Below are positions 1,829 through 54,785 of a DNA stretch of 62,149 nt, one piece after another. Positions within the stretch are counted from its first letter, which is position 1. Every line of letters starts with the position of its first letter. The notes below the pieces were generated by a model. That model ran no database searches. It was not told the origin of the DNA and worked only from the letters and a program-made list of their open reading frames with translations. Made by a program: the position numbers and the translations under genes. Source of the DNA: Candidatus Spyradenecus sp. (lineage in GTDB: Bacteria; Verrucomicrobiota; Kiritimatiellia; RFP12; DVOR01); assembly GCA_051884775.1 (NCBI GenBank), contig JBJEVY010000076.1, positions 1 to 62,149 of the forward strand, in the 5' to 3' direction.

Positions 1829-4081
1829 TTAGTGTCTCCCTTTGCCAGTAGCTCGCGGCCCTTTACCGCCACCGTGGCGTGGACCCTTTCCGCGACCACG
1901 GTCACGCCCGCGTGTTTTGGCGATGGCCGCCAGGCGCGTCTCTTCACCGTGGCGCCCGCCATTCCACACATCCACGGCCGAGCCCTGCATGTAGGCAAAG
2001 TCTAGCCGGCGGTTCGGGAAATCGACCTTCGCCACATAGACCTTGAGGTTCATCCCAGAGCGGATGGTCAGCTTGCCCACGCTCAAGCTCTCGCTGGTGG
2101 CGTTGAAGGTGACATACTGCCGGGAGATGCCGGCCACGTGGACCATCCCCGAGAGCTGCAAATCGATGACCTCCACGAAGAAGCCGAAGGGCTTGACGGC
2201 CACGACCACCGCGTCATAGACCTGCGGCTTGCGCGCATCGAGCTGCTCCTGCAGGAAGCGGTACTTCTTGATCTCCGTAAGGGCGCGCTCGGCTTCGTCG
2301 GCCAACTGTTCGCGCTCGGTGGCGCGGTTGGCGGCACGCTCCAACCAAGCCTTGCCGGGTTGCGCGCGCGTGTTCCCCTCCAGGTAGGCCGCCAACTGCC
2401 GGTGGAGCACCAGGTCGGGATAGCGCCGGATGGGCGAGGTGAAGTGGGAGTAGTAGGTGAGGGCCAACCCAAAGTGCCCGTGCTGCTCGGCCGAGTAGAG
2501 CGCACGCTTCATCGAGCGCAACACCAGCGCGTGAATGTGGTATTTGAGCGGATGATCGGCCGTCTCGCGCAAGAGCGAAGCCAGGGCCTTGGGCTCGCGC
2601 AAGTCGCGCGGGCGAATGCCGAGCTTGCGCAGCTCGAGCTCCAGTTTGGCAATCTTCTCATCCTCCGGCGGCTCGTGCAGGCGGCTGATAATCGGCACTT
2701 GGTGGGTGAGCAGTTCGCGCGCCACCGCCTCGTTAGCCGCCACCATACAGCACTCAATGAGCTGATGGGATTCGTCGTTCGAGGCAGCGTGAATGCCCGT
2801 CATCCGCCCCTCGCTATCGAGGGTAATCTCCACCTCCTGCGAGGCCATCTCCAGGGCGTTATTCCGCTCGCGAATCTGCTTGAGCTGCCGCGTCAGCGCC
2901 AAGGTCTCCTTAAGCATCGGCTGGGTCCGTGGGTCGAGCGTGCCGCAGGCAATCTTCACCGGCCGATCTTCCAAGAGCGCAATTGCCTCCTCATAGGCCA
3001 AGCGCTGGGAGGAGCGAATGATACTCTTGGCGAACTGCGTTCCTACCACCTGCCCGCGTTCGTCGTAGGTCAGAAAGACCGAGAAGGTCAAGCGGTCCTC
3101 TCCAGGCATTAGCGAGCAGACGCTATTGGAGAGCTGCTCGGGCAACATCGGCACCACCTTGTCAATCAGGTAGACGCTCGTGCCGCGGCGGTAGGCCTCC
3201 TTGTCAAGCTCCGAGCCCGGGCGCACAAAGTGGCTCACATCGGCGATGTGTACGCCCAAGACTCGCCGCCCCTGCGCGTCGCGCTCCAGGCTGATGGCAT
3301 CATCGAAGTCGCGCGCCGTTGCCGGGTCAATCGTCAGGATAAAGCGGTCGCGCAAGTCCAGGCGCTTGCCCGGCTCGTGCAAGAGCGTGGCCACCTGCTC
3401 GGCTTCAGCCACCACTGTCTGACCGAAGGCCTCGGGCAGCTCATACTGCCGCAAAATCGCCACCGTGTCGAACGAGGGCTTGTCCGCCGGCCCAATCACT
3501 TCCAGCAACTCCGCCTCTAGCCTTTCACTGCGGCCTTCTCCGGCGCGCTGCACCCGCACCACCACGCGGTCCCCGGCCTTTGCGCCCTTCGGATCGGCTA
3601 ACACAAAGTCATTGCGGTAGACCGGATTGAGCGGCTCAACACTCCATCGATCGCCCACCTTACGCACCGTCCCCACCACATCGCGCACCGATTGCTCCTC
3701 AATCGTCCGCACCACCCCCACGGGGTCCGACCGCGTTCCCGGCCGATAGGCCACCGTTACCCGGTCGCCCTGAATGGCCTTGCCGACATCCTGACTCTCC
3801 ACAAAGACCTGCTTGCCAGTCTCTTCATCGGTGACAATGGCCGCGCCACTACGCGTCATCCGCACCGTTCCCGTCAGCAAGCCCGTCCCTTGACCAGCGC
3901 GGTAATATCCTCGCCGCTTCTCCACAATCTCCCCCGAGCGCACCATCTCGCGCAAGAGCCCATTCAGCCGCTTGGCCGCCTTCCCGCGCAACCCGAGCGT
4001 TTTAATAATCGCCGGCACGCAGAACACAGTCTCCGGCTCACTCTGAAACAGATACCTAATCGCTTGTTCTTCAATATTCAT
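1829..4081 (-). CDS. rnr: Ribonuclease R
   Basis: TIDPATARDFDDA, RGTSVY and HFTSPIRRYPDL motifs, S1 domain, basic C-terminal tail. Start set at ATG 4081. Confidence 0.93.
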   Translation of the reverse strand: MNIEEQAIRYLFQSEPETVFCVPAIIKTLGLRGKAAKRLNGLLREMVRSGEIVEKRRGYYRAGQGTGLLTGTVRMTRSGAAIVTDEETGKQVFVESQDVGKAIQGDRVTVAYRPGTRSDPVGVVRTIEEQSVRDVVGTVRKVGDRWSVEPLNPVYRNDFVLADPKGAKAGDRVVVRVQRAGEGRSERLEAELLEVIGPADKPSFDTVAILRQYELPEAFGQTVVAEAEQVATLLHEPGKRLDLRDRFILTIDPATARDFDDAISLERDAQGRRVLGVHIADVSHFVRPGSELDKEAYRRGTSVYLIDKVVPMLPEQLSNSVCSLMPGEDRLTFSVFLTYDERGQVVGTQFAKSIIRSSQRLAYEEAIALLEDRPVKIACGTLDPRTQPMLKETLALTRQLKQIRERNNALEMASQEVEITLDSEGRMTGIHAASNDESHQLIECCMVAANEAVARELLTHQVPIISRLHEPPEDEKIAKLELELRKLGIRPRDLREPKALASLLRETADHPLKYHIHALVLRSMKRALYSAEQHGHFGLALTYYSHFTSPIRRYPDLVLHRQLAAYLEGNTRAQPGKAWLERAANRATEREQLADEAERALTEIKKYRFLQEQLDARKPQVYDAVVVAVKPFGFFVEVIDLQLSGMVHVAGISRQYVTFNATSESLSVGKLTIRSGMNLKVYVAKVDFPNRRLDFAYMQGSAVDVWNGGRHGEETRLAAIAKTRGRDRGRGKGPRHGGGKGPRATGKGRH

Positions 4082-4088
4082 GCCCCAC

Positions 4089-4094
4089 AGTATA
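4089..4094 (-). promoter_or_regulatory. Extended -10 (TGgTATACT) 7 nt upstream of rnr ATG; likely leaderless promoter
   Basis: Minus strand reads atatggTATACTgtggggcATG, with no SD. Confidence 0.55.
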
Positions 4095-4218
4095 CCATAT
4101 CCCACGCCCCCGCGCTTGGGGAAATCATTAAGTGCGAGGCGTGTTTGCCGATAGACATTGTATATCGGCCTGTTTCGGCAGGCCGCGCATCTCGGGTGGA
4201 CTTTGCTCGTGGGGCAGG

Positions 4219-5913
4219 TTAGGGGGCGGGACGGCGGAGGCGGTAGTGCTTCTCCATCCCGTAGGGGAAGTTGTGGGGAAGGTAGTTGAGGACGCGCTGG
4301 TTGACCAGGGAGAAGTCGAGCGCGTAGTGGAGGAGGAGCCAGGGGCAGTCTTCAAGGACGAGGGCCTGGATTTTCTGCCAGCACTCGGAGATCTCGGCGG
4401 GGTCGCGCGAGGCAATGGCGATTTGATAGAGGCGGTCGACCTCGGGGTTGATATAGTTGGAGCGGTTGGGACCGGGAGATTGGTTGCGCGAGACGAAGAG
4501 TTGCATAAAGGTCTCGAGGTCGGGGTAGTCGCCCACCCAGCCCATGAGGAACATTTGGGCTTGGCGGCGGCGGATCTTCTCGAGCATTGCCTGCCAGGTG
4601 TTGACGGAGAGCTCGAGTTTGATGCCAATGGCGGCGAGGAAGGAGGCCACGAGCTCCATCGATTCGGTGGTGTCCTGCGTGGCGTTGCCAACTTCGAGGG
4701 TGAGGCGGAGGGGGGCGCCGGTCTTGGGGTCGATACCGCCTGGATAGCCGGCCTGGGCCAGGAGTGCTCGGGCCTTTTCGAGGTTGTAGGCGTAGGGGAA
4801 GGGGGCCGAACTGGCATCCTGAAGGTGGGGCGGGGCAACGGTGTTGAGGGCTTTGACGCGGCCGCGGTAGTAGGCTTCCCAACGGGCGGTGTCGAAGGCG
4901 GCGTTGAGGGCCTGGCGCAGGGGCTTGTTGGGGCCGAGGACGGGGTCGTCCATATTCAGGCCGATGTAGTAGACCTTGAGGGTGGGGGAGGTGAAGAGGC
5001 GGATGCCACGGGCCTGGAGGTCGGGGGAGAGCCCCATCTTGGGGTCGATGGCCAACTCCATATTGTTACGGTCGATCTGCTCAAGGAAGTCGAGCTGGCC
5101 GGTGAGGAGCATCAGCCACTGGGTAGAGGGGTCCTTGACGATAGGGTAGCGGATGGTCTCGAAGGGGACCTCGCTGTCGTGCTCGGGGTCGATGCCGGCC
5201 CAGCCGTACCACTCGGGGTTGCGGTCGAAAATCATTTCGTAGCCGCGCCACCAGCTGCGCAGGGTGTAGGCACCGGCACCGACGGGGTGCTCGGCCAGGC
5301 CGTGCTGACCGTAGGTGGCGACGGCTTCCGGCGGAACGGGGGACATGTAGGCCATCGTCAGGAACCAGAGGAACTGGTTGTTCGGGCGGGTGAGGCGGAC
5401 GCGGAGGGTGCGCGCGTCAAGGGCTTGGAGACCGGGCACATCGCGCGTATAGTCGGTTGCTTCGCCGGCAATGGAGGCTTCGGCAAAGGCTTCCATTCCC
5501 TCAATGTGCTTGACGAGCCATTCGCCCGAGCCACCGAGGCGGCGATCGGCCAAGCGTTTCCAACCGTAGACGAAGTCCGCGGCCGTCACTTGGCGGCGCT
5601 TGCCCTCGCCAAAGCAGGGGTCTGGGGCGTAGTAGGCTTCGCGCAAATGGAAGGTGTAGGTGGTGCCATCTTCGGAGACCTCGGGCATCGCCTCGGCGGC
5701 GGCGGGGACAAGGCGGTATGGACGCGCGGCGTAGTCGTATTCCAAGAGCGGCTCAAAGAGGAGCGACATCGCGCAGTTGACGCTGGTGTCGGCACCGAAG
5801 GCCGGGTCGAGGGTGTTCAGGGAGGGCTGCGCTCGGCGGAAGGTGCGGTCCTCGGCGGCCCCGGCAAGGAGGGCAAAGAGGAGGGCGGCCACAGCCAAGA
5901 GGTGGCGCTTCAT
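4219..5913 (-). CDS. ABC transporter substrate-binding protein, family 5 (OppA/DppA-like)
   Basis: Signal peptide MKRHLLAVAALLFALLAGA; LDPA, TYTFHLR, VTAADFVY, PVGAGAY and GWVGDYPD motifs. ATGA overlap with the queC stop. Confidence 0.88.
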   Translation of the reverse strand: MKRHLLAVAALLFALLAGAAEDRTFRRAQPSLNTLDPAFGADTSVNCAMSLLFEPLLEYDYAARPYRLVPAAAEAMPEVSEDGTTYTFHLREAYYAPDPCFGEGKRRQVTAADFVYGWKRLADRRLGGSGEWLVKHIEGMEAFAEASIAGEATDYTRDVPGLQALDARTLRVRLTRPNNQFLWFLTMAYMSPVPPEAVATYGQHGLAEHPVGAGAYTLRSWWRGYEMIFDRNPEWYGWAGIDPEHDSEVPFETIRYPIVKDPSTQWLMLLTGQLDFLEQIDRNNMELAIDPKMGLSPDLQARGIRLFTSPTLKVYYIGLNMDDPVLGPNKPLRQALNAAFDTARWEAYYRGRVKALNTVAPPHLQDASSAPFPYAYNLEKARALLAQAGYPGGIDPKTGAPLRLTLEVGNATQDTTESMELVASFLAAIGIKLELSVNTWQAMLEKIRRRQAQMFLMGWVGDYPDLETFMQLFVSRNQSPGPNRSNYINPEVDRLYQIAIASRDPAEISECWQKIQALVLEDCPWLLLHYALDFSLVNQRVLNYLPHNFPYGMEKHYRLRRPAP

Positions 5914-11506: not shown

Positions 11507-12403
11507 TCAATCGCACTGCGCCCCTTCAATCAATTCCGCGCACAGTTGCGCAAAGGGCTTTCCCGCCCGCGCAGCCGCATCAGGCAGCAAACTGGTGGCC
11601 GTACAGCCCGGCGCAGTGTTAATCTCCAGAATGTAGGCTTCGCCCTCAGGCGTAACGCGGAAGTCGATTCGCACCGCTCCTCGGCAAGCGGTGGCGGCAT
11701 AGGCCTGTTCGGCCAAGCGCTGCACCTTCGCCGTCAGCGCATCCTCTGGCGGATAAACATGCTTGGAGACCCCGGCGGCGTACTTTGCATGAAAGTCGTA
11801 CCAGCCATTGGGCGCCTGGATCTCAAGCACCGGTAGCGCCTTGCCGTTGACCACACCCACTGCCCACTCACGCCCGGGAATGTACACTTCCGCCAAAGCC
11901 TCCCCTGCGGCATCCTGCGCGCACGCTAGGCGAACGGCCTCAGCCCACTGCCCAGGTTCCGTCACCTTTGAGAGCCCCACGCTCGACCCATCGCGCGGCG
12001 GTTTGACCACTGCCGGCAGCGGCAATGGACACGGCTTCTCCGCTTCCGCTGCCGTCAAAACGCACCCCTGCGGCACGGATAGCCCCGCCTTGGCTAGAAC
12101 CTCCTTGGTGGCCACCTTATCCATACAGAGCGCACTTGTGTGCGCACCCGGGCCGGTGTAGGGCAGTTTGAGCGCGTCCAACGCAGCCTGAATGCCGCCA
12201 CCCTCGCCATAGCCGCCATGCAACGCAATGAAGACCGCCTCAACATCGCGCGGCACTTCATCGGCGCTGTCCTTCGTCAGTCGCGCCTCAACCACATCAA
12301 ACCCAGCCTCCTGGAGCGCCGCGGAAACCGCCGCCCCGGACTTTAGGGAAATCTCTGCCTCATGGGATGTTCCACCCATAACCACTGCAACTCGTTTCTT
12401 CAT
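11507..12403 (-). CDS. ddl: D-alanine--D-alanine ligase
   Basis: MGGTSHEAEISLKSG, LHGGYGE, GSSVG, YDFHAKY, RIDF and EINTAPG motifs. Start set at ATG 12403. Confidence 0.95.
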   Translation of the reverse strand: MKKRVAVVMGGTSHEAEISLKSGAAVSAALQEAGFDVVEARLTKDSADEVPRDVEAVFIALHGGYGEGGGIQAALDALKLPYTGPGAHTSALCMDKVATKEVLAKAGLSVPQGCVLTAAEAEKPCPLPLPAVVKPPRDGSSVGLSKVTEPGQWAEAVRLACAQDAAGEALAEVYIPGREWAVGVVNGKALPVLEIQAPNGWYDFHAKYAAGVSKHVYPPEDALTAKVQRLAEQAYAATACRGAVRIDFRVTPEGEAYILEINTAPGCTATSLLPDAAARAGKPFAQLCAELIEGAQCD

Positions 12404-12574
12404 TGCAATATCCTTGCCATAAACGCCCGTCATTCTATCACAATCCGTAATTGCTTGCCGATCCCCCTTGCGCTGAATCAGATGAACGACACGCCTGGCC
12501 GACCTTCTGGCTTTAAGTCGCCTTACCTGCGTTTTCGGAGCAATGTCGGGATAAGAACGGGGCTTGCCGCTTGC

Positions 12575-12749
12575 GTACCCCAATTGGGGTACCGACCATT
12601 CCCCAATTGGGGTACTGACCATTCCCCAATTGGGGTACCACACACATCCGCCCGAGGGGCAACTTGAGCTTGCGGCGGAAGCAACCAATAAGTCCGGGAC
12701 TTATCGGCAATAAGTCTGGGACTTACCGGCAATAAGTCCGGGACTTATT
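12575..12749. repeat. Bipartite palindrome-array element, copy 1
   Basis: 3x CCCCAATTGGGGTAC at 12578/12601/12624 (23-bp period); 49-bp linker; 3x AATAAGTCYGGGACTTA at 12687/12709/12731 (22-bp period). Confidence 0.92.
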
Positions 12750-12935
12750 TGTTTGAATAGCCCCTAGTTGCAGTCGAAGTCGCCCTGAGTGGAGATTGAT
12801 ATGGCCTCTCGTAGAGATTTCTTGACGCGCTTCGCGCGCGCGTGCGCGCGTTTAGATATGTAAGGAGCTCGCAGATGGTTCGTTGCGTTCAGGGATATGC
12901 GAGCGGGGTGGGGAGGGTTTTGGTATGATAGCGGT

Positions 12936-14189
12936 ATGAAGTTTTCGATGTTTTTGGCGCTTAAGTATCTTCGCCCTACGCGCGGGGTGGCTTCAGTCGT
13001 GACGCTTCTGTCGGTGTTGGGGGTGACGATTGGGGTGGCGATTGTGATTATTGTGCGGGCGGTGTTCACGGGCTTTGGGGACACGTGGCAGCAGAAGATT
13101 TTGGCCTTTAAGCCGCATATTGTGATTCAGGCGGCGAATCGGCAGCCATTGGTGGGGGAAGAGGGAATGTGCCGGGCGTTGGAGCAGATTCCGGGGGTAG
13201 AGGCAACGTCGCCAAGTATCGAGACGCGGGTGTTGGCGGAGTATAATGGGCGGATTTTGGCGCCGATTCTCTTGGGAGTGGATAGCGAGCGGGTGCAGAA
13301 GATGTTGCCCTTTGAGATGTGGAATGGGCGCTTTGATGTGAGTGGCGAGGGGGTGGTTATCGGCATTGATATGGCCGCGCGATTGATGGTGGGGGTGAAT
13401 GATGAGTTGATGGTCTATTCTCCGATGAACTTGGTCAAGCGCGACGAGATTTATTTCCCCGAGCGGCTGACGGTGCGGGGGATTTATCGGACGGGGCAGG
13501 CTGAGTTTGACGGCGGGTATCTCTTTGTGTCGCTGCCGGTGGCGCGGGATTTGGCGGGGGTGGAGATTGGCGCGAACAGCATTTCGTTGCGGGTGGCCGA
13601 TCCGCAGGCGCTCTCGCCCTTTTCGTTGCAGCCCGACCCGCTCTTGGCACAGGTGCGCGAGGTGGTGCAAGCGCGTTCGCCAATCCGGGCGCTGACGATT
13701 AGCACCTGGCAGCAGCTTGACCGCCTAATCTTTAATGCGGTGGCCACGGAGAAGAATATGATGACATTGCTGCTGATCTTTATTAGCGTGGTGGCCATCT
13801 TCTGCGTGGTGAATACGATTATCGTGATTACGGTGCAAAAGACACACGAGATTGGGCTGCTCAAGGCGTTGGGGTTCTCGACGCGGCAGTTAACGATGAC
13901 CTTTGTTTGTTACGGCTGGATTCAGTGTGTGGTGGGGACGGCGCTGGGAGTGGGGTTGGCCTTCTTGGTGTTGCATAATCTGCAGAACCTGGTGGCGATG
14001 CTGGCGCACTGCGGGGTGGAGGTCTTCCCGAAGGCGGTGTACGGTCTGGATGCGTTGCCGTGGCGCGTGGAGGCGCTGGAAGTGGCGCAGGTGGTGGTGA
14101 TGGTGGTGGGCTTTTGTGCCCTCTCTTCGCTGTTGCCGGCGTGGCGCGCGGCCGCGATGAACCCTGTTGATGCCTTGCGCAAGGAGTAA
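12936..14189 (+). CDS. lolC: Lipoprotein-releasing ABC transporter permease (LolC/E family)
   Basis: LALKYLRP, GVTIGVA, PHIVI, K..EIGLLKALG and PAWRAA..NPVDALR motifs. Start set at ATG 12936. Confidence 0.85.
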   Translation: MKFSMFLALKYLRPTRGVASVVTLLSVLGVTIGVAIVIIVRAVFTGFGDTWQQKILAFKPHIVIQAANRQPLVGEEGMCRALEQIPGVEATSPSIETRVLAEYNGRILAPILLGVDSERVQKMLPFEMWNGRFDVSGEGVVIGIDMAARLMVGVNDELMVYSPMNLVKRDEIYFPERLTVRGIYRTGQAEFDGGYLFVSLPVARDLAGVEIGANSISLRVADPQALSPFSLQPDPLLAQVREVVQARSPIRALTISTWQQLDRLIFNAVATEKNMMTLLLIFISVVAIFCVVNTIIVITVQKTHEIGLLKALGFSTRQLTMTFVCYGWIQCVVGTALGVGLAFLVLHNLQNLVAMLAHCGVEVFPKAVYGLDALPWRVEALEVAQVVVMVVGFCALSSLLPAWRAAAMNPVDALRKE

Positions 14190-14885: not shown

Positions 14886-16217
14886 ATGGCCGAGCCACGG
14901 AACAAGCGTAAAGCGAAGTCCTCGCAGTCTGCCAAGGTGGTCGAGCGGCCGGTTGGCGGTGGGGGGTGGCTGCTCTTCGCGCTGATGGTGTGCGTGGGGG
15001 CGGCGGCCTTTCCGGTGGCGATGACGCGCCTGAGCAGCGATGCATTGACGCCCGGGGCCTTCTTTGCCCCGCTTGTGGGATGGTTTGCGACGGCGCTGCT
15101 TTCGTTGTGGGTAACGCGGCCAAGCCGGTTTGGCGGGGACCGCCTTGTCGTGGCGCTGACGCTTCTGTTGTTTGGGCTGGGCATTGTTGAGCAATGGCGT
15201 TTGGGGACATGGGTTGAAGCGTGGCACGCCTGGCGGGCCTATCTGCCGCTTATGGGGGGCGTAGTCGGGTGGCTCTTCTGCCTGCGGTGGTTGAATGCGG
15301 AGCGGTTGGCCGCGCTTTTGCCGCGGGTGCAGTGGCTCTGCTGGCTGGGGGCGCTGGGGGTGTTGGTAGCGTTGCGGCTCTTCGGGCGGAGTTATCGCGG
15401 GGGAATGTTCCTGCCGGGGCAAATCAACCCCACTGAGTTGGTGAAGGTGCTCTTGGTGGCCTTTACGGCTGCCTGGTTGCCGGCGCGGACCGAGGCGCTG
15501 TCGCGGGTGGTGGCGGGGGTGCCGGTACCGCCGTTGAAGGAGGCGTTGGCCCTGGCTGTGTTGTGGGGGGTGCCGCTGGCCGGCGCGGTGGCTGTGCGTG
15601 ACTTGGGGCTGGTTCTAATCTTGTGCTTGACGCTGATGTTGATGCTCTGCGTGGCCACGCGGCGGCTGGGGTGGTTAGTAGTGGGGTTGGGCGCGGCCGC
15701 GGCGGCGGGGTGGGGGATTCGCTTCCTCTCGGCGCATAGCGCGGTCCGATTCGCCGTCTGGCTCGACCCCTTTCAGGATCCCACGGGCAAGGGTTGGCAG
15801 ATTGGTCAGAGCCTCTGTGCGCAGTTCGCCGGGGGGCTGTGGGGGAGCGGTTTGGGCGAAGGGATGCCCGGAACGGTCCCGATTGTGACCAGTGACTTTG
15901 TCTATGCCGCCTTGGCCGAAGAGTGGGGGCTCATTGGCTGCGCGTTGGTGTTGGTGGCCTTCTGGCTCTGGATTTGGCGAAGTTCCCGGGCGATGGAGGC
16001 GACGGTGCTCCCATCGTGCCGCCTGTTGGGGCTGGGGTTGACGGCCTTGATGGGCGTGCAGCTGGTGCTGAATATTGGGGGCGTGACTAAGGCCTTGCCG
16101 ATGACGGGCATTACGCTGCCCTTCTTCTCGCAGGGAGGCTTCTCGCTCCTGACCTCGCTTCTGCTCTGCGGTTTGGTCTGTGCGTGCACGAACTGCGCGC
16201 ACGACCGTGCGCGCTAA
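14886..16217 (+). CDS. FtsW/RodA/SpoVE SEDS-family protein
   Basis: Multi-TM; INPTELVK, DLG, WLDP, GWQ..QS, SDFV...AEEWG, LPMTGITLPFFSQGG motifs. Confidence 0.9.
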   Translation: MAEPRNKRKAKSSQSAKVVERPVGGGGWLLFALMVCVGAAAFPVAMTRLSSDALTPGAFFAPLVGWFATALLSLWVTRPSRFGGDRLVVALTLLLFGLGIVEQWRLGTWVEAWHAWRAYLPLMGGVVGWLFCLRWLNAERLAALLPRVQWLCWLGALGVLVALRLFGRSYRGGMFLPGQINPTELVKVLLVAFTAAWLPARTEALSRVVAGVPVPPLKEALALAVLWGVPLAGAVAVRDLGLVLILCLTLMLMLCVATRRLGWLVVGLGAAAAAGWGIRFLSAHSAVRFAVWLDPFQDPTGKGWQIGQSLCAQFAGGLWGSGLGEGMPGTVPIVTSDFVYAALAEEWGLIGCALVLVAFWLWIWRSSRAMEATVLPSCRLLGLGLTALMGVQLVLNIGGVTKALPMTGITLPFFSQGGFSLLTSLLLCGLVCACTNCAHDRAR

Positions 16218-16357
16218 GCCGACAGCTGACAGCCGACAGCTGACAGCGCTGGCGCTCGATATGACTCTCCCGTCTGAGCCGTTGAAGCATATTCGTTAGA
16301 CCATAGGTTGGTCCGTCGCGTGAGCGGCTGTCCGCTGTCCGCTGACGGCTGTCGGCT
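16217..16357. repeat. Heptamer-armed REP-like inverted repeat (E1) between convergent genes
   Basis: (GCYGACA)x4 ... TCCGTCGCG ... inverted (GCTGTCS/GCTGACG)x4; starts at the SEDS gene stop codon. Confidence 0.75.
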
Positions 16358-19986: not shown

Positions 19987-20138
19987 TTAGCCGTTAGCGG
20001 TTAGCTGCTAGTTGTTAGCGCGCGTTCCGCGACGGATAGGCTGGTTTGTTAGGAACCGTAAGCCACGCCTTCTCTGGCCAACAATGTGCCAGTCGCACAC
20101 AGTGCGCCCTGTCGACTGTTCACTGTCGACTGTCGACT
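19987..20138. repeat. Heptamer-armed REP-like element (E2, chimeric arms)
   Basis: GTTAGC-type heptamers, CGCG-TTC-CGCG-ACGG, core, GTCGCAC-ACA-GTGCG, then (CTGTCGA)n. Confidence 0.8.
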
Positions 20139-21674: not shown

Positions 21675-21768
21675 TCCGGGACTAACAATTAAGTCCACCA
21701 CCTAATTGAATTAAGAGGGGCTGTTAATTCAATTAAGTGGCCCTGATAATTCAATTAAGAGGCCCTCC
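21675..21768. repeat. 22-bp period array of TAATT(G/C)AATTAAG
   Basis: Copies at 21703, 21725 and 21747, plus degenerate GTCCGGGACTAACAATTAAGTCC upstream. Confidence 0.75.
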
Positions 21769-24627: not shown

Positions 24628-24711
24628 GGTGGGCCCGGAGGGGGTCGAACCCTCGCGCCTTGCGGCACAGGAACCTAAATCCTGCGTGTCTGCCAATTTC
24701 ACCACGAGCCC
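24627..24711 (-). tRNA. tRNA-Leu(TAG)
   Basis: GGGCTCGTGGTGAAATTGGCAGACACGCAGGA-TTTAGGT-TCCTG, long variable arm, GGTTCGACCCC, encoded CCA. Confidence 0.97.
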
Positions 24712-28293: not shown

Positions 28294-31182
28294 TTATTTC
28301 AGAATCTGCCTAAGGAAGTGCCCGGTGTAAGAGCCGGGCACTTTTGCTACAGCCTCGGGGGTGCCTTGCGCCACGAGCGTGCCGCCCCGGTCGCCGCCTT
28401 CGGGGCCAAGGTCGAGGAGCCAATCGGCGGATTTGATGATGTCAAGGTTATGCTCGATGACGACGATCGTGTTACCCTGGTCGCGCAGACGCAGGAGAAG
28501 GGTGAGGAGCTTGTGAACGTCAGCGAAGTGCAGGCCGGTGGTCGGCTCGTCGAGGATGTAGAGCGTGCGCCCGGTGGCGCGCTTGGAGAGTTCGGTGGCC
28601 AGCTTGATGCGCTGGGCCTCGCCGCCGGAGAAGGTGGTGGCGCTTTGGCCAAGCTTGATATAGCCCAGGCCAACCTCCGCGATGGTGCGCAGCTTGTTGG
28701 CAATGGCGGGAATCTCGGCAAAGCACTCCAGCGCCTCGTCCACGGTCATCTCAAGCACGTCGGCAATGGACTTGCCTTTGTAGCGCACTTCGAGCGTTTC
28801 GCGGTTATAGCGTGTGCCGCCGCACTGCTCGCAGGGCACATACATATCCGGCAGGAAGTGCATCTCCAGGCGCTTGAGCCCCTCGCCCTGGCAGACTTCG
28901 CACCGGCCTCCCTTGACATTAAAGGAGAAGCGCCCGGGCGCATAGCCACGCATCTTGGCCGCCGGGGTTTGGGCGAAGAGCTCGCGGATGGCAGTGAAGC
29001 AGCCAGTGTAGGTGACCGGGTTCGAGCGCGGGGTTCGGCCGATAGGCGATTGGTCGATCTCAATCATCTTATCGAGCGCCTTGAGGCCTGTAATCTTGCG
29101 GTAGCGCCCGGGCTGCTCGCGCGCACCGTTGAGGGCGTGGGCTAGGGCCCCCTTGAGAATATCGTCGACGAGCGTGGATTTTCCCGAGCCCGAGACGCCC
29201 GTCACGCACACGAAGCACCCCAACGGCAGGCGTACGGAAAGGTTCTTGAGGTTGTTGCAGGTGCAGCCCTCGAGCGTGAGCCAGGCCTTGCCCGGGGCTA
29301 CGCGCTGGGGGATGGGGACGGCTTTACGCCCGGTCAGGTAGTCGGCCGTCAGCGAGCGGCGGCACTTAAGGAGCCCGGTGGCCGGCCCTTGGTAGACCAC
29401 CTCGCCGCCGAGGCGCCCAGCCCCGGGCCCGATGTCGATGAGGTAATCGGCGCGGCGGATCATCTCCTCGTCATGTTCCACCACCACCACGGTGTTACCG
29501 CGCTTTTGCAGGCGGTGGAGCATATCAATCAAGCGCTCGTTGTCGCGCGGATGAAGGCCGATGGTCGGCTCGTCAAGGACGTAGAGGACGCCGACCAAGC
29601 CGCTGCCAATCTGCGAAGCCAGGCGGATGCGCTGCATCTCGCCGCCCGAGAGGGTCGAGCTTTCGCGGTCGAGCGAGAGATAATCCAGCCCGACATCCAC
29701 CAAGAAGGCTAGGCGCTTGCGGATCTCCTTGAGGATTTCGGCGGCCACATGCGCTTCGTGTGCCTCCAGTGCCTCGCGCACCATCGTTTCGGAAGCGGGC
29801 GTGGTGCCATTCAAGAGCTCATCGAAGAGTCGTAACGCCTCGCGCGCCGGAAGGTGCAGCACATCCGGTAGGGTCCAGCCGGCGACCGTCGCCACGCGGC
29901 TCTCCGGACGCAAGCGCGCGCCGTGGCAGTCGGGGCAGAGCTGCGGGGCGAGGAACTGCGAGAGTGTTTCGCGCGTATCATCGTTGTCACACTCGGCGTA
30001 ACGGCGTTGCAGGTTGGGCAGAACACCCTCAAAGGGCTTGTCCATCGTGTTGCGCACGCCTTTGAGGTAATAGACCAGCGTGACCGGCTCGCTACCTGTG
30101 CCGTGCAGTAACTCTTGGCGGAAGCGTTTGGGCAACTCGCAGAAGGGCGTTTCGACATCCACCCCGCGCGCCTCGGCGAAAGCCGAGATGAGCCAATTGT
30201 AGTACATCAGCAGGTGGTGGCCGCCGCGGCGCCAGCCTACGATCGCTTCGCGCAAGGGCTTGGTCTTATCGGGCACCACGAGCGCCTCATCAAAGACCAT
30301 CAGCGCGCCAAGTCCAGAACAGGTTGGGCAAGCGCCATAGGGCGAGTTAAAGGAGAAACTTCGCGGACGCAGCGCCTCAAAAGAGATGCCGCAATCGGCG
30401 CAGGCATTCTTCTCGGAGTAGAGCGTGCTCTCGCCGCCGACAATCTGCACCTCCACCAGCCCCTCGGAGAGGCGTAGCGCCTGTTCAATGCTGTCGGTTA
30501 GGCGCGTACGAATGGTCGGCTTGAGGACCAAACGATCGATGACCGCATCAATTCGGTGTGGGCACTTCTTGTCGAGTTCTGGCCAGTCGCTTTCAATCTC
30601 CACCAGCGCGCCATCCACCCGTGCCCGGATGTAACCCTGGCGCAACATCAACTCGCGCACCTCCTCGTGCCGCCCCTTCCGTCCCCGGACGATGGGCGAG
30701 AGCAAAATCAACTTCGTTCCCTCCGGCAACGCCATCAAGCGGTCGACAATCTCCTCGGCGCTCTGTGGGCGGACCGCCTTGCCGCACTTCGGGCAGTGGG
30801 CGTGGGCAATGTTGCCCCAGAGCAGACGCAGGTAGTCGAGAATCTCGGTGACGGTGGCCACGATGGAACGCGGGTTACTGCCGCTGGCCCGTTGCTCAAT
30901 CGAAATGGCCGGGGAGAGACCTTCAATATGCTCGACCTCGGGCTTCTGCAGCTGATCGAGGAACTGGCGGGCATAGGCCGAGAGACTCTCCACATAGCGC
31001 CGCTGGCCCTCGGCATAGAGCGTGTCAAAGGCGAGTGAACTCTTCCCAGATCCGGAGAGTCCGGTAATGACAGTTAGCGAGTTGCGCGGAATGCGCACAT
31101 CGATATTCTTCAGGTTGTTTTGCCGCGCGCCGGTAATGACAATTTCACCATTCTCCTCGTGCGCTGAATGCTTCCTGGCCAT
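28294..31182 (-). CDS. uvrA: Excinuclease ABC subunit A
   Basis: Two ABC modules ([18 protein letters not shown]), zinc fingers, LSGGE and DEPT motifs. Confidence 0.97.
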
Positions 31183-32151: not shown

Positions 32152-32709
32152 TTACTTGCGCATCCGGCAGAAGCTTTCGATTGCCGAACGGAAGTCCTTG
32201 GCGAAGACGCCCGCGGTCTTGCGGTCAATCGCCGTCTTCACGCACTTGGCCACGAAGGTCTCCAGGAGGAACTGACCGAAGGCGTGGAGGTTGTTCTTGG
32301 TCTGCAGGATGAGGGCAAGCACCTCAGTGCGCGAGGTATCTTCCTTTGCAATAGCCTGGCCAATCACATCACACGAAGCGATAATCTTCTCGATGCGTTC
32401 TTCGAAGGTGCCCTCGTTAATCAGCGCGATATCGCGGTTGGTCTGACAGAAGCTGCGGATGCCCTGATTGAATTGCTCAGAGAAACAAGCAGGGGCGGCA
32501 GCCGCAATCGCTTTCTGGACCGCTTCGGCGATGTAGTCGTCGAGCAACAGCTGGCCCAACTGATGGAGCGCATTCTTCGCCGCGCTCACCTGCAAAAGCG
32601 TGTCCGTGCAGGGGGACTTCGACTTGATCATGCGCAAGATACCCTTGCACTGACCAACAACCTTGTTCAGTCGGCGCTGAAATGCCAATTTGTCTGCTTC
32701 ATCAATCAT
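32152..32709 (-). CDS. CsoR/RcnR/FrmR-family regulator with tandem-duplicated domain
   Basis: RRLNKVVGQCKGILRMI..CTDTLLQVSAAKNAL, plus a second diverged copy in the C-terminal half. Confidence 0.8.
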   Translation of the reverse strand: MIDEADKLAFQRRLNKVVGQCKGILRMIKSKSPCTDTLLQVSAAKNALHQLGQLLLDDYIAEAVQKAIAAAAPACFSEQFNQGIRSFCQTNRDIALINEGTFEERIEKIIASCDVIGQAIAKEDTSRTEVLALILQTKNNLHAFGQFLLETFVAKCVKTAIDRKTAGVFAKDFRSAIESFCRMRK

Positions 32710-33573: not shown

Positions 33574-33687
33574 AGAATGCTCCTTTCGTTATGGTCATCA
33601 TTTTAAGCTTGCCTCGGTTATTCCTTGGCGAACCAAGGGAATGTTAGCAAAGCGTCGGCGCCAGAGACAAGCCCGCCCGAGGTCACC

Positions 33688-33908
33688 GTGTACCCCAATT
33701 GGGGTACACGCGATTCCCCAATTGGGGTACTGCCTGTTCCCCAATTAGGGTACACATCATTCCCCAATTGGGGTACCACTCGCGTCCGCCCGGGGGGCGA
33801 CTTGAGCCTGCGGCGAGGGCGATTGATAAGTCTGAGTCTTATTGGAATTAAGTCTGAGACTTATTGCAATTAAGTCTGAGTCTTATTGGAATTAAGTCTG
33901 GGACTTAT
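33688..33908. repeat. Bipartite palindrome-array element, copy 2
   Basis: 4x CCCCAATT(G/A)GGGTAC at 33693/33716/33739/33762 (23 bp); 49-bp linker; 4x TAAGTCTGRG(A/T)CTTAT at 33827/33849/33871/33893 (22 bp). Confidence 0.92.
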
Positions 33909-33974
33909 GAATTGGAGGCTGCCGAGGGGCGGGTTTGCAAGCGGTGGAGGCGGAGTTTTGCTAGAATGGGCGCT

Positions 33975-43230: not shown

Positions 43231-44034
43231 ATGAATACAACAGCGAAGATGGCGACGGCCGGCGTCGCCGTGGTTGCATTGATGGCCGGCAGTTATGCGG
43301 CAGGGCGCTTTTTTGCGCCGCAGCAGGTGGTTGCCGAGGAGGTCGTACCGGTGGCTAAGCCTGTGGTGGCGGTTGCGGGGAATGGGGACGCTTTGGCGCT
43401 CTCGAAGGCGTTGAGCGAAGTGGAGGCGCTGAAGGTGGAGAAGGCCGCGCTGGAGAAGGCGTTGGTGGAGTTGCAGTCAGCCGGGGAGCAGGCGGCCCAG
43501 GCGGCGGTGGAGCCCCCTAAGCGCCTGTCGATGCGCGAGCGGATGGAGGAGTTGAAGAAGCAGGATCCGGAGCGTTATCGCCAGATGGAGGAGCGGCGCG
43601 CGCAGTTCCAGCAGGCACTGCAGGCTGCGCGTGACAAGCGCGATGACTTTTTGGGAAGCGTAGATTTGGCGCTCTTCACCGATGAGCAGCGGCAGACCCA
43701 TGAGCAGTTTACCGCCGCCTTGGCCAAGCAGGCGGAGATGGAGGAGCAGATGCGCGCGCTCTTTGAGAGCGGCGAGATGCCATCTGAGGAACAACGCGAG
43801 GCGATGCGCGAGGCGCAGTGGACCTTGCGCAACTTGCGTGAGGCTGAGCGCGCTGCCCTGCTGAGCGCGGTGGCCACTTCAATGGGGCTCTCGGAAGCTG
43901 ATAGCGCGGACTTTGCCCAGTTGATGACCGAGGTTTACGATGCCACGAGTAATGGTATTCGGATGCGCCCTGGGCGTGGTGGCGAGGGCGGCCCTGGGGG
44001 CGGTCCTGGCGGGATGCCGTCGCCTGGGCCGTGA
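43231..44034 (+). CDS. Membrane-anchored coiled-coil hypothetical protein
   Basis: N-terminal TM, E/R/Q/A-rich helices, Gly/Pro tail; TATAAT 6 nt upstream. Confidence 0.75.
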   Translation: MNTTAKMATAGVAVVALMAGSYAAGRFFAPQQVVAEEVVPVAKPVVAVAGNGDALALSKALSEVEALKVEKAALEKALVELQSAGEQAAQAAVEPPKRLSMRERMEELKKQDPERYRQMEERRAQFQQALQAARDKRDDFLGSVDLALFTDEQRQTHEQFTAALAKQAEMEEQMRALFESGEMPSEEQREAMREAQWTLRNLREAERAALLSAVATSMGLSEADSADFAQLMTEVYDATSNGIRMRPGRGGEGGPGGGPGGMPSPGP

Positions 44035-44085
44035 GTTGACAGTCGTCAGTCGACAGTCGACAGGGCGCGGCGAGCCGCGACGGAT
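44035..44085. repeat. Half heptamer-armed REP-like element (E3)
   Basis: GTTGACA GTCGTCA GTCGACA GTCGACA GG CGCGGCGAGCCGCG ACGGA, directly after a stop codon. Confidence 0.75.
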
Positions 44086-54584: not shown

Positions 54585-54646
54585 ATACTCCCTATTTAAT
54601 CACATTTCCCCGCGCCCTGCAATAGCCTAGGCTCGCTCCGCTCGCA

Positions 54647-54785
54647 GCGGTTAGCCGTTAGCGGTTGGCTGTTAGCTTCGCGTGCCGCGACGGAAAAGTG
54701 TGGTCTGAGGAGGTGAAGTCCACCTTCTCGAACGCTTCGTTTCTCCGTCGCACGCAGTGCGTGCTAACCGCTAACGGCTAACAGC
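54647..54785. repeat. Heptamer-armed REP-like element (E4)
   Basis: (GTTAGC-type)x4, TCGCG-TGC-CGCGA-CGG, core, CCGT-CGCAC-GCA-GTGCG, (GCTAACN)x3; contains the uppS stop codon. Confidence 0.85.

What the first reader, a model, noticed from the sequence alone, without database searches (positions are those of the whole stretch)
12575..12749. Bipartite phased-palindrome element: array A (23-bp period), fixed 49-bp linker, array B (22-bp period)
Seen: three copies of the palindrome CCCCAATTGGGG (GTACCCCAATTGGGGTAC in full) exactly 23 bp apart. A GC-rich linker follows, then three copies of an unrelated palindrome AATAAGTCC-G-GGACTTATT exactly 22 bp apart. It sits in the divergent ddl / lolC intergenic region, and a second complete copy lies at 33.7-33.9 kb. 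Partial inverted similarity to the linker recurs after array B (GAAGTCGCCCTGAGTGGA, ~12776-12793). No protein gene is associated. Inference: two dyad arrays about two helical turns apart at a fixed distance look like a loading platform for two different dimeric DNA-binding proteins (centromere-, iteron- or nucleoid-organiser-like), or a non-autonomous mobile element. I do not recognise it as a named element; it is the best candidate for an undescribed system here.
Basis: partly seen in the sequence, partly recalled or inferred. Interest (0 to 1): 0.78.

Follow-up and report, generated by a model that had tools for sequence, protein, structure and literature searches.

The report
Dispersed palindrome-array repeat element
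The two phased palindrome arrays are real, but they are one copy of a small repeated DNA element scattered through this gut bacterium's genome, part of a much larger set of 22-base tandem repeats between genes, and no function is shown.

Summary
Window 12575-12749 carries 3 units of GTACCCCAATTGGGGTAC at a 23-bp period, a spacer, then 3 units of TAAG-N7-CTTA at a 22-bp period. A 4+4 copy lies at 33689-33908. Both motifs are far above chance.

It is not a unique bipartite site. The MAG (2.39 Mb, Lentisphaeraceae-like) has 14 A-array loci. Eleven share the order A-linker-B, with a 52-53 nt linker in 10 of 11. Twelve further B arrays lack A, and three A arrays have B on the other side.

The linker is two diverged units of the commonest 22-bp family. 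The whole element therefore forms one lattice of dyad motifs about 22 bp apart. The genome holds 211 such 22/23-bp arrays.

Paralogous copies are alike only from the first A unit to the last B unit. One locus is occupied in three relatives and cleanly empty here. I saw no terminal inverted repeats and no target duplication. Unit numbers differ between orthologues.

Best reading (about 0.5): a lineage-restricted, non-autonomous mosaic minisatellite element, akin to BIME or BrickBuilt. It may be moved by the genome's RAYT-like Y1 transposases, but that link is not shown. A protein-binding platform is not excluded (about 0.22).

The parts
12575..12641 (+). Array A: 3 units, 23-bp period; 12-bp core CCCCAATTGGGG inside a conserved 17-18-bp dyad, with a 5-6 nt variable spacer
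   Evidence: unit logo from 45 units
12642..12686 (+). Linker: two diverged about 22-bp GC-rich units (GCCCGAGG / CYCGRG-type motif) that keep A and B dyads on one 22-bp lattice
   Evidence: (52-53 nt in 10 of 11 canonical copies; 97 = 53+44 in one)
12687..12749 (+). Array B: 3 units, 22-bp period; frame TAAG-N7-CTTA constant, inner 7 nt and 7-nt spacer variable
12750..12800 (+). Tail after array B with partial inverted likeness to the linker (12776-12793). It is conserved in the orthologous copy of G013, but it is not part of the homology shared by four other paralogous copies of the element (the window copy was not in that alignment)
12826..12851 (.). Alternating purine-pyrimidine GC tract (GCGCGTGCGCGCG type) next to the element; similar tracts lie beside other arrays
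   Evidence: (TRF 12836-12851)
12432..12461 (-). Promoter-like site of ddl (TG-extended TAGAAT); the element lies upstream of it
12921..12929 (+). TGnTATGAT extended -10-like motif 7 nt before the ATG (12936) of the permease gene; the element lies about 170 bp upstream
   Evidence: read; the same TTTTGnTAnAAT pattern recurs before lepA and other genes; inference
11507..12406 (-). D-Ala-D-Ala ligase gene (left neighbour, 5' end faces the element)
12936..14189 (+). MacB_PCD + FtsX permease gene, LolC/E-like (right neighbour, 5' end faces the element)
33689..33776 (+). Second copy, array A: 4 units (third core has one mismatch)
33777..33826 (+). Second copy, linker of the same subtype and length (53 nt from GGGG to TAAG)
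33827..33908 (+). Second copy, array B: 4 units with a different inner core (TCTGAGT / TCTGAGA / TCTGGGA)
21703..21766 (+). Lone B-family array (AATTAAG...TTAATT units, 22-bp period) with no A array, upstream of a thioredoxin-like gene

Best explanation
The feature is one copy of a lineage-restricted, non-coding, non-autonomous repeat element built as a string of 22-23-bp 'beads'. An array of A hairpin/dyad units forms one end and an array of B hairpin/dyad units forms the other. Two beads of the genome's commonest GC-rich family lie between them.

Shown:
- The element is dispersed (14 A loci, 11 in canonical order).
- In the four paralogous copies that I aligned (C14, C96, C75, C80; neither window copy was included), homology runs only from the first A unit to the last B unit, so that span is the shared unit.
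- It can be present or cleanly absent at an orthologous site.
- Unit numbers change between orthologues and in metagenome contigs.
- It belongs to a genome-wide mosaic of at least 211 arrays of 22/23-bp period.
- The three motif lattices that I searched (A, B and CYCGRG) are confined to a small clade of the genus.

Inferred:
- Copies spread by a transposition-like step that needs no terminal inverted repeats and leaves no target duplication. This is what single-strand, hairpin-recognising HUH/Y1 transposases do (IS200/IS605, REP/RAYT).
- The genome encodes several RAYT-like Y1 proteins. Some carry their own flanking repeats, but none is linked to A or B.
- Arrays then grow and shrink by slipped-strand mispairing or unequal exchange.
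- Palindromy may be kept by hairpin-templated correction (an established mechanism for quasipalindromes; recalled, not tested).

The elements sit mainly upstream of promoters, so they may change local promoter context. No host function is shown.
For: Copy number and order:
- 13 clusters of at least 2 cores plus C58, which is 14 loci.
- 11 of 14 loci are A(+)-linker-B. The linker is 52-53 nt in 10 of 11 and 97 nt (53+44) in one.

Unit of dispersal:
- a MAFFT alignment of four paralogous copies shows homology starting at the first A unit and decaying after the last B unit; the flanks are unrelated.
- spacer variants recur in the same order in different loci (C14, C86, C96), as expected if whole composites are copied.

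Gain or loss as a unit:
- at one tRNA-gene locus G013, G021 and G003 carry an insert of about 400 bp (leader, A x2-4, linker, B x4, tail). G000 has 9 nt there. No duplicated target is visible.

No inverted ends:
- for 27 B arrays the inverted-flank score averages 14.6, against 12.2 for shuffled and 15.7 for direct flanks.

Turnover:
- upstream of lolC and lepA the five carrier species have different bead mosaics, or none.
- 6 of G013's 11 A loci are shared with G000.

Unit-number change:
- 3 versus 4 A units in both orthologous pairs.
- a 22-bp insertion, one extra B unit, in one metagenome contig.

Genome-wide system:
- 1507 TRF rows, 186 at period 22 and 44 at period 23.
- 211 non-overlapping arrays, of which 132, 59 and 13 fall in three clusters.

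Clade restriction:
- A-array pairs occur in 5 of 41 genomes.
- B-array pairs occur in the same 5 of the 28 genus genomes.
- the CYCGRG lattice occurs in 7 of 28.

Y1 genes:
- a 336-aa protein matches PF01797 at 28.6 bits (cut-off 23) and NF047646 at 44.8 bits (cut-off 80). G000 has four further weaker matches at other loci (26-32% identity; one carries an internal TAG, one covers only 74 residues).
- several are flanked by their own repeats.

DNA level rather than RNA:
- no Rfam family.
- and reading: in both window copies the element lies between divergent core promoters.
Against: - No mobilising enzyme is tied to A or B. None of the 12 RAYT-like loci that I scanned has an A or B unit within the fetched flanks. 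The G000 paralogues lie 7-12 kb or more from the nearest A or B array.
- RAYT-like homologues also occur in 6 genus genomes that lack the arrays.
- Only one occupied/empty site was examined. Its direction, loss in G000 or gain elsewhere, is not resolved.
- The cores are almost invariant (1.5-2.0 bits per position over 45 units) while spacers in the same array differ. That could equally mean selection by a host DNA-binding protein.
- Arrays favour promoter-bearing spacers, unlike classical REPs. Of 12 A arrays placed by a crude gene caller, 7 are in divergent spacers, against 181 of 812 background spacers. Of 27 flanks, 19 are gene 5' ends.
- Two of six shared loci (lolC and lepA) were read base by base and are stably inherited between G000 and G013, so movement is not frequent.
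- The genome is a 120-contig MAG, 93.65% complete. Of 204 arrays in the three big clusters, 36 lie at contig edges, so all counts are lower bounds.
Confidence: 0.5

Rival explanations
1. Phased operator lattice. The A and B dyads, and the CYCGRG beads between them, are binding sites for dimeric DNA-binding proteins placed every two helical turns on one face. They form a cooperative nucleoprotein array upstream of promoters, acting as a regulator, silencer or nucleoid organiser.
For: - The 17-18-bp A dyad is nearly invariant while its 5-6 nt spacer is free, even within one array.
- B keeps TAAG...CTTA (half-site centres 11 bp apart) while the inner 7 nt vary.
- Dyad centres of A, the two linker beads and B fall at 0, 21.5, 43.5 and 66.5 bp, computed.
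- Arrays are enriched in divergent spacers and at gene 5' ends.
- In 4 of 5 carrier species a B-type or related AT-ended palindrome array is the module nearest the lepA promoter.
- Arrays with the same TAAGT-N5-ACTTA frame and 22-bp period occur in unrelated gut and marine Bacteroidota.
Against: - No candidate protein was found. The genes flanking the 14 A loci show no small HTH or RHH regulator common to them (N-terminal sequences only).
- Many unrelated bead families (at least three large clusters) would need many proteins.
- Array type, number and presence differ between close species at the same promoter, which is hard to square with a conserved regulatory role.
- Distance to the promoter is not fixed: about 53 to about 170 bp, read.
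- Copy numbers vary 30-fold between sister species.
Confidence: 0.22
2. Non-B-DNA buffer. The palindrome arrays, with the neighbouring alternating GC tracts, extrude cruciforms or flip to Z-form under the negative supercoiling that builds up between divergent promoters. They are kept because they absorb or insulate supercoiling, not because a sequence-specific protein binds.
For: - Strong self-complementarity. As single-stranded DNA, 12570-12755 folds at -47.9 kcal/mol against -25.4 +/- 3.4 for shuffles (z -6.6). 33685-33915 folds at -50.1 kcal/mol (z -7.0).
- Both window copies lie between divergent promoters.
- Alternating purine-pyrimidine tracts lie beside several mosaics.
- Arrays are depleted from convergent spacers. 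For the GC-rich cluster 12 of 106 arrays are in convergent spacers, against 163 of 812 background spacers.
Against: - Stems are short (7-9 bp), so extrusion at natural superhelicity is uncertain.
- It does not explain why the exact A core is conserved rather than any palindrome.
- It does not explain the fixed A-linker-B order or the dispersal of whole composites.
- Nothing here measures DNA structure.
Confidence: 0.1
3. RNA element. The arrays are transcribed and act as strings of hairpins, for example in transcript stabilisation, as a protein sponge or as a small RNA precursor, as proposed for many REPs.
For: - Each unit can form a 7-8-bp hairpin.
- The abstract of PMC3733652 says many REPs are plausibly transcribed.
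- BrickBuilt segments have promoter activity, per the abstract of PMC4596501.
Against: - There is no Rfam family at gathering score. At E<=1 only microRNA models score 19-23 bits, against gathering scores of 64-100.
- In both window copies the element lies upstream of both divergent core promoters (reading), so no known transcript crosses it.
- 19 of 27 flanks are gene 5' ends.
Confidence: 0.05
4. Replication or partition site: iterons of an origin, or a centromere-like array for a ParR/omega-type protein.
For: - Tandem 22-23-bp units with internal dyads resemble iterons (R6K-type 22-bp iterons and the dyad-symmetric iterons of the lambda origin; recalled knowledge, not tested here).
Against: - There are 14 A loci and at least 23 B arrays on many chromosomal contigs.
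- No rep or par gene is among the 27 flanking genes, judged from N-terminal sequences only.
- The flanks are housekeeping genes.
- Presence and absence vary between sister species.
Confidence: 0.02

Closest known systems
BrickBuilt of Porphyromonas gingivalis (Klein et al. 2015, PMC4596501; I read the abstract, sections 5 and 7 part 1, and passages)
   Same: - A minisatellite of 23-nt units without spacers sits inside a small non-coding element with a 'leader' and a 'tail'.
- It has about 19 copies in a 2.3-Mb genome and is always intergenic, 49-591 nt from coding sequences.
- Unit numbers expand and contract between strains.
- Its host range is limited and it has no Rfam match.
- It is suspected to affect promoters.
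   Different: - The BrickBuilt brick (AGAYCATARTATCCTCTCRTRTG) is not a palindrome and is unrelated in sequence.
[quoted passage not shown]
- Here there are two different palindromic arrays per element, and the linker and flanks are themselves 22-bp beads.
- No inverted ends, no target duplication and no matching insertion sequence were found here.
REP / BIME elements and REPINs with RAYT transposases (Di Nocera et al. 2013, PMC3733652, abstract read; Bertels and Rainey 2011, PMC3116915, search listing only)
   Same: - Short extragenic palindromes in high copy, combined in mosaics with specific linker motifs.
- Several families coexist in one genome.
- RAYT-like Y1 transposase genes are present, and some are flanked by their own repeats.
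- No target duplication is expected.
   Different: - There is no GTAG or CGTC tag; A is flanked by GTAC on both sides.
- Units are 18-19 bp, arranged in head-to-tail arrays of strict 22-23-bp period rather than as inverted pairs.
- The elements are enriched in divergent, promoter-bearing spacers. The PMC3733652 abstract says REPs lie mainly between unidirectional and convergent genes, downstream of coding regions.
- No RAYT-like gene is flanked by A or B.
   Same: - Intergenic mosaics are built from short modules bounded by small palindromes.
- They are variable between strains and lie at sites of rearrangement.
   Different: - NIME modules are 50-150 bp, not a 22-bp lattice.
- There is no sequence relation.
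- This comparison rests on memory only.
IS200/IS605-derived miniature elements (hairpin-ended, 'peel and paste'); recalled knowledge of the family
   Same: - Both ends are hairpin-forming.
- There are no terminal inverted repeats and no target duplication.
- Absence at an empty site is seamless.
   Different: - The ends here are multi-copy arrays of two unrelated hairpins, not single subterminal hairpins.
- No conserved target tetranucleotide was seen; 7 of 11 left junctions are preceded by GC (reading).
- No cognate transposase is shown.
Iterons of plasmid and phage origins, and type Ib/II centromere arrays; recalled
   Same: - Tandem units of about 20-23 bp, often with dyad symmetry, spaced two helical turns apart.
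   Different: - Those occur once per replicon, next to rep or par genes.
- Here there are dozens of chromosomal loci next to housekeeping genes.

Membership tests
REP / BIME (RAYT-associated) | 20-40-bp imperfect palindrome, high copy, extragenic | tested here: met
   18-19-bp palindromic units. There are 45 A units at 14 loci and 86 TAAG-N7-CTTA units against about 8.6 expected. They are slightly shorter than the 20-40 bp given in the PMC3733652 abstract. 'Extragenic' is assumed: arrays were masked before ORF calling, so a position inside genes could not be scored.
REP / BIME (RAYT-associated) | Unpaired GTAG or CGTC tag at one end of the palindrome | tested here: not met
   A units are flanked by GTAC/TAC on both sides as part of the dyad. 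B units carry no such tag.
REP / BIME (RAYT-associated) | Cognate RAYT gene flanked by the same repeats | tested here: not met
   RAYT-like genes exist. However, 0 of 12 scanned RAYT-like loci carry an A or B unit. The G000 paralogues are flanked by other repeats.
REP / BIME (RAYT-associated) | Mostly between convergent or unidirectional genes, downstream of coding regions | tested here: not met
   Of 12 placed A arrays, 7 are in divergent spacers, 3 in tandem and 2 in convergent, against a background of 181/468/163 (crude gene caller). 19 of 27 flanks are 5' ends.
MITE with internal minisatellite (BrickBuilt type) | Internal tandem array of about 22-23-nt units, variable in number | tested here: met
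MITE with internal minisatellite (BrickBuilt type) | Terminal inverted repeats | tested here: not met
   the inverted score of B-array flanks is 14.6, against 12.2 shuffled and 15.7 direct (n=27); homology ends at the arrays themselves.
MITE with internal minisatellite (BrickBuilt type) | Target-site duplication | tested here: not met
   Only one occupied/empty comparison was made. No duplicated bases are visible at the junctions.
MITE with internal minisatellite (BrickBuilt type) | Ends matching a resident insertion sequence | tested here: inconclusive
   A self-BLAST of the MAG found no insertion-sequence-like multi-copy element. The 1.1-1.45-kb repeats are paralogous genes, mostly of the AAA-ATPase-like kind. 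MAGs often lose insertion sequences in assembly.
Iteron origin / centromere array | Single locus per replicon beside rep or par genes | tested here: not met
   There are 14 A loci and at least 23 B arrays. The neighbours are housekeeping genes.
CRISPR array | Repeats separated by unique spacers of similar length (over 20 bp) | tested here: not met
   The spacers are 5-7 nt.
Known RNA family (Rfam 15) | Score at or above the family's gathering threshold | tested here: not met
   One search found only a tRNA elsewhere in the window. In one search the best score was 22.7 bits against a gathering score of 100.

The most novel reading that the evidence does not exclude
The 22-bp lattice of dyad motifs is a functional, protein-read code rather than junk. 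Under this reading a conserved class of dimeric DNA-binding proteins polymerises on half-sites spaced one helical turn apart, upstream of promoters.

The same TAAGT-N5-ACTTA, 22-bp-period arrays seen in Bacteroidota and a few other phyla would mark a widespread, undescribed chromatin-like or regulatory system. The Lentisphaeraceae clade would have amplified it to hundreds of sites.
Probability: 0.12. Interest if true: 0.8.

Novelty: new variant of a known kind. Interest (0 to 1): 0.5.

Why it matters
If the main reading holds, this is a compact and unusually regular case of mosaic intergenic repeats. Several unrelated palindromic minisatellites are locked to one lattice of about 22 bp. They fill about 0.7% of a 2.4-Mb genome (about 16 kb in 204 arrays). 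They are confined to a handful of sister species and sit at synteny breakpoints and just upstream of promoters.

It offers material for three questions: how short palindromic repeats arise, how they are copied without inverted ends or target duplications, and how they reshape promoter regions in an uncultured gut lineage. They also break assemblies. Of 204 arrays, 36 lie at contig ends, which matters for MAG quality.

The two searches I ran turned up no description of such repeats in Lentisphaerae. Neither searched for the motifs themselves, and I found no paper on the cross-phylum TAAGT arrays.

Tried and rejected
- **Known RNA family.** The Rfam gathering scan of the window found only a tRNA at 24630-24711. 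The E<=1 scan of 12400-12950 gave three microRNA models far below threshold. A scan of 18 Bacteroidota loci with B-like arrays found only a cobalamin riboswitch and a tRNA, neither on the arrays.
- **Terminal inverted repeats around B arrays.** They are not better than shuffled or direct controls. My earlier impression from reading (note) was wrong.
- **Strand bias against replication.** A-array orientation shows no relation to local GC skew at 14 loci, and skew is near zero or positive everywhere. Uninformative.
- **RAYT adjacency.** None of the 12 scanned loci has an A or B unit.
- **AAA-ATPase-like/PD-(D/E)XK multi-copy genes as a co-occurring factor.** PF09820 is present in 15 of 28 genus genomes, including array-free ones with 26 and 35 matches. 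No association.
- **A gene consistently next to B-like arrays in Bacteroidota.** The neighbours in 23 loci are unrelated housekeeping genes, judged from ORF starts and not scanned against Pfam.
- **Expression.** No RNA holder was listed among 23 runs. The four runs laid were DNA contigs, mostly of relatives. Nothing can be said on transcription.
- **Literature.** 'Lentisphaerae' + 'tandem repeats' + 'intergenic' gave 2 unrelated papers. A six-term REP/RAYT search gave the two REP papers cited. 'BrickBuilt' gave 4 papers.
- **Not seen.** Supplementary files of PMC4596501 and PMC3733652, which hold repeat alignments and locus tables, were not seen.
- **CRISPR, iteron and centromere readings.** Rejected on anatomy and copy number (see the membership tests).
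Full report
**1. What is in the window**

- Three CCCCAATTGGGG cores start at 12578, 12601 and 12624, a 23-bp period.
- The first core sits in the full 18-bp palindrome GTACCCCAATTGGGGTAC.
- Three TAAG-N7-CTTA units start at 12689, 12711 and 12733, a 22-bp period. The middle unit is imperfect.

Tandem Repeats Finder reports both arrays, and the second copy at 33689-33908 with about four units of each.

Against dinucleotide-preserving shuffles of the window:
- The A core gives 7 hits against 0.34 expected.
- The B frame gives 7 hits against 0.12 expected.
- No shuffle reaches either count.

The neighbours are as claimed. A D-Ala-D-Ala ligase gene is on the minus strand and a MacB_PCD/FtsX (LolC/E-like) permease gene on the plus strand, divergent. 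The second copy also lies between divergent genes, a BSP-family peptidase-like gene and lepA.

A TG-extended -10 site for ddl lies at 12461-12432. TGnTAnAAT-like motifs lie 7-10 nt before the ATGs of the permease and lepA genes (read). Both copies therefore sit between the two divergent core promoters, in DNA that no recognised transcript crosses.

**2. It is a dispersed element**

The window is contig C76 of a 2.39-Mb, 120-contig assembly with 63.8% G+C.
- The A core with up to 1 mismatch clusters at 13 loci. A fourteenth (C58) has more diverged units. Four isolated near-matches look like chance.
- Oriented maps show 11 of 14 loci as A(+)-linker-B.
- In C20, C115 and C118 the B-type array and linker lie on the other side of A, so A is flipped relative to them.
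- TAAG-N7-CTTA occurs 86 times against about 8.6 expected, in 23 clusters of two or more units. Twelve of these have no A array nearby.
- The window itself holds a lone B-family array at 21703-21766.

A and B are therefore separable modules. A-linker-B is also a recurrent composite.

**3. The linker and the lattice**

From the last GGGG of A to the first TAAG of B there are 52-53 nt in 10 of 11 canonical copies. In the eleventh there are 97 nt, which is 53+44.

The linkers share only two CTCGGGC-like motifs and a short ATTTGA stretch. They read as two diverged units of the GC-rich 22-bp family that is the commonest tandem repeat in this genome.

Computed, the dyad centres of the last A unit, the two linker motifs and the first B unit lie at about 0, 21.5, 43.5 and 66.5 bp. 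The whole element is therefore one lattice of dyad-symmetric motifs about 22 bp apart. The 'fixed linker' is real in length but is not a special sequence.

**4. The genome-wide system**

- TRF on the whole assembly gives 1507 rows. There are sharp excesses at period 22 (186 rows), 23 (44), 21 (83), 7 (329) and 14 (106).
- After removing overlaps there are 211 arrays of period 22 or 23.
- They fall into a GC-rich cluster (132 arrays, 10.7 kb), an AT-ended palindrome cluster that includes B (59 arrays, 4.4 kb), the A family (13 arrays, 0.9 kb), and seven singletons.
- Beads of different families abut each other in many spacers.

**5. Conservation pattern**

Over 45 A units the 17-18-bp dyad carries 1.5-2.0 bits per position. 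The 5-6 nt between dyads carries 0.2-1.0 bits.

Spacer variants recur in the same order at different loci (C14, C86, C96). This suggests that whole composites were copied.

In B the frame is constant while the inner 7 nt vary. The inner part is often, but not always, palindromic: TCCGGGA, TCTGAGA and ACTGAGT are, while TGGGGGA and AGCCAGA are not.

**6. Unit of dispersal, gain and loss**

A MAFFT alignment of four paralogous copies (C14, C96, C75, C80) shows likeness starting at the first A unit and fading after the last B unit. The flanks are unrelated.

At a tRNA-gene locus, G013, G021 and G003 carry an insert of about 400 bp: a 50-bp leader with a GCCCGAGG bead, then A x2-4, the linker, B x4, and a tail of about 100 bp of GC-rich beads. 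G000 has only 9 nt between the same flanking sequences. I saw no duplicated target. The insert begins 6 nt upstream of the -35-like TTGCCA of the tRNA promoter and abuts the stop codon of the neighbouring gene (my reading).

A test for inverted repeats around 27 B arrays gave 14.6, against 12.2 for shuffled flanks and 15.7 for direct comparison. There are therefore no true terminal inverted repeats.

**7. Comparison with relatives**

Distribution of the three lattices:
- A-array pairs occur in 5 of 41 relatives, including G000 (31, 19, 3, 2 and 1 matches). None occurs in the 16 genomes outside the genus.
- B-array pairs occur in the same five of 28 genus genomes.
- A three-unit CYCGRG lattice occurs in those five plus two more. 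Counts run from 5 to 546, and it is absent from the other 21.
- Titles of named records that hold the A pattern are all Lentisphaeraceae or Candidatus Spyradenecus MAGs.

Upstream of lolC:
- G013 has the same element with 4 A units, but with a 3-kb insert between it and ddl. Homology to G000 stops at the first A unit.
- G021 has B plus other beads and no A.
- G003 has no arrays.
- ddl and lolC are not adjacent in the more distant genus genomes where both matches could be placed; in each listed case they lie on different contigs or tens of kilobases apart on one contig.

Upstream of lepA:
- G000 has A4-linker-B4 and G013 has A3-linker-B4, with different inner cores.
- G017 has GC-rich beads plus B4.
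- G003 has GC-rich beads plus a different AT-ended array.
- G021 has other beads only.

Six of G013's 11 A loci are shared with G000. One metagenome contig laid on the window carries exactly one extra 22-bp B unit.

**8. Position relative to genes**

I used a crude ORF-based gene caller with arrays masked, so arrays inside genes could not be scored.
- Background spacers of at least 50 bp: 468 tandem, 181 divergent, 163 convergent.
- A arrays: 3 tandem, 7 divergent, 2 convergent, plus 1 at a contig edge.
- The B-type cluster: 22, 20 and 8, plus 9 at edges.
- The GC-rich cluster: 56, 38 and 12, plus 26 at edges.
- Of 27 gene ends flanking the 14 A elements, 19 are 5' ends.

This is the opposite of the bias reported for REPs in the abstract of PMC3733652. 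Arrays in one spacer are not independent, and the gene calls are rough, so these are indications only.

**9. Candidate enzymes**

- A 336-aa protein (C56:20190-21200) matches Y1_Tnp at 28.6 bits (cut-off 23) and the REP-associated tyrosine transposase model at 44.8 bits (cut-off 80). It has an HxH motif and a C-terminal tyrosine region.
- G000 has four further weaker matches at other loci (26-32% identity; one carries an internal TAG, one covers only 74 residues). Homologues occur in 11 of 28 genus genomes, including all five carriers and six non-carriers.
- Some are flanked by their own repeats: 37-40-bp arrays on both sides at C83, and a repeat of about 95 bp with a GGCCTG...CAGGCC hairpin on both sides at C11.
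- None of 12 scanned loci has A or B units nearby.

The link to A and B is therefore an inference from the element's anatomy (hairpins at both ends, no inverted ends, no target duplication), not a finding.

**10. Other tests**

- There is no Rfam family.
- As single-stranded DNA the two copies fold far better than shuffles (z -6.6 and -7.0), as tandem palindromes must.
- GC skew shows no relation to orientation.
- PF09820 multi-copy genes show no association with the arrays.
- No RNA run was listed.

**11. Comparison with what is known**

The nearest published analogue I could read is BrickBuilt of P. gingivalis. It is a 23-nt minisatellite inside a small intergenic element with a leader and a tail. 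It has 19 copies, a variable unit number and promoter activity (PMC4596501).

It differs in three ways: its brick is not palindromic, it has IS5-like inverted ends, and its flanks are not repetitive.

REP/BIME/REPIN systems share the palindromes, the mosaic build and the presence of RAYT-like genes. However, three of their defining features (tag, RAYT flanking, 3' location) were tested here and not met. I therefore file the element as a new variant of mosaic intergenic repeats, not as a member of either family.

**12. Verdict**

The 'undescribed protein-loading system' is not shown.

The best-supported reading is a lineage-restricted, non-autonomous bead-string repeat element. It is copied and lost as a unit and resized by unit slippage. 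It lies within a genome-wide 22-bp lattice system whose driver is unknown.

The near-invariant cores, the strict phasing, the promoter-proximal bias and the recurrence of the TAAGT-N5-ACTTA 22-bp frame in other phyla keep a functional, protein-read lattice alive as the bolder alternative.

Noticed in passing
window 16217-16247 with 16327-16357; 54646-54676 with 54763-54786; also 19987-20138, 44030-44063, 55516-55657: Heptamer tandem repeats (AGCCGAC/AGCTGAC, GCTAACN, CGACAGT...). In the two pairs that I read (16217-16357 and 54646-54786) they form inverted pairs around cores of about 70-80 bp, so each pair could make a long hairpin with arms built of 7-nt repeats. The other three places are TRF rows only, not read. 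Period-7 arrays make 329 TRF rows genome-wide.
   Followed up: partly
L066-L140 (named Bacteroidota and other records), e.g. L081, L068, L073, L089: Arrays of three or more units with the same TAAG-N7-CTTA frame at a 22-bp period occur in Prevotella/Segatella, Bacteroides, Tannerellaceae, Tenacibaculum and Wocania records. Single records of Kurthia, a Clostridium-labelled MAG and Saccharimonadales also have them. By my reading, most of the 24 printed arrays (about 20; counted by eye, not by a script) extend the frame to TAAGT-N5-ACTTA. There the palindrome is centred on the GC-rich 7-nt spacer. The neighbours are unrelated housekeeping genes.
   Followed up: partly
G000 C56:20190-21200; C83:23587-24855; C11:19176-20327; C104:16419-17480 (own genome, outside the window): A family of long (about 310-340 aa) RAYT-like Y1 transposase homologues with a C-terminal extension. 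The C83 copy is flanked on both sides by 37-40-bp arrays. The C11 copy is flanked on both sides by a repeat of about 95 bp with a GGCCTG...CAGGCC hairpin, which also recurs inside the intergenic mosaics.
   Followed up: partly
L038 (G013:C39:6500-13800), locus positions about 2700-5650: In G013 a block of about 3 kb lies between the ddl promoter and the first A unit; by eye only (no family search) it looks like one long gene. G000 lacks it. ddl and lolC are not adjacent in the more distant genus genomes, so the element sits at a synteny breakpoint.
   Followed up: partly
window 12826-12851; own genome C109 about 30370-30400, C118 about 32250-32280, C11 about 12060-12110: Alternating purine-pyrimidine GC tracts (GCGCGTGCGCGCG type, Z-DNA-prone) lie next to several bead mosaics, often just upstream of a promoter.
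   Followed up: no
own genome C1 about 5215, C24 about 14545, C109 about 30255, C118 about 32145; G021 and G017 loci: A conserved AT-rich motif of about 20 nt (TTTACATTTTTATCCGCCCC and variants) recurs between bead arrays. It is one of the few non-repetitive modules of the mosaics.
   Followed up: no
own genome C23:7621-9285, C82:14534-16114, C1:11361-12950, plus 9 more matches: Multi-copy genes (12 PF09820 matches in G000; 85-91% DNA identity between some pairs). They encode AAA-ATPase-like proteins of about 530-550 aa. That they also carry a PD-(D/E)XK nuclease domain is my recollection of such proteins; no call tested it. Counts in the genus range from 0 to 35 per genome, with no link to the arrays.
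   Followed up: yes
window 12921-12938, 33955-33977; own genome, many gene starts: Many genes have a TTTTGnTAnAAT extended -10-like motif only 7-10 nt before the start codon. This suggests frequent leaderless or very short-leader transcripts in this organism.
   Followed up: no
own genome, contig ends (e.g. C86:1-230, C72:1-55, C74:1-69, C14:11543-11645): Many contigs end inside 22-bp arrays. Of 204 arrays in the three large clusters, 36 had a gene on only one side within their contig. The repeats therefore break the assembly and the copy numbers are lower bounds.
   Followed up: partly
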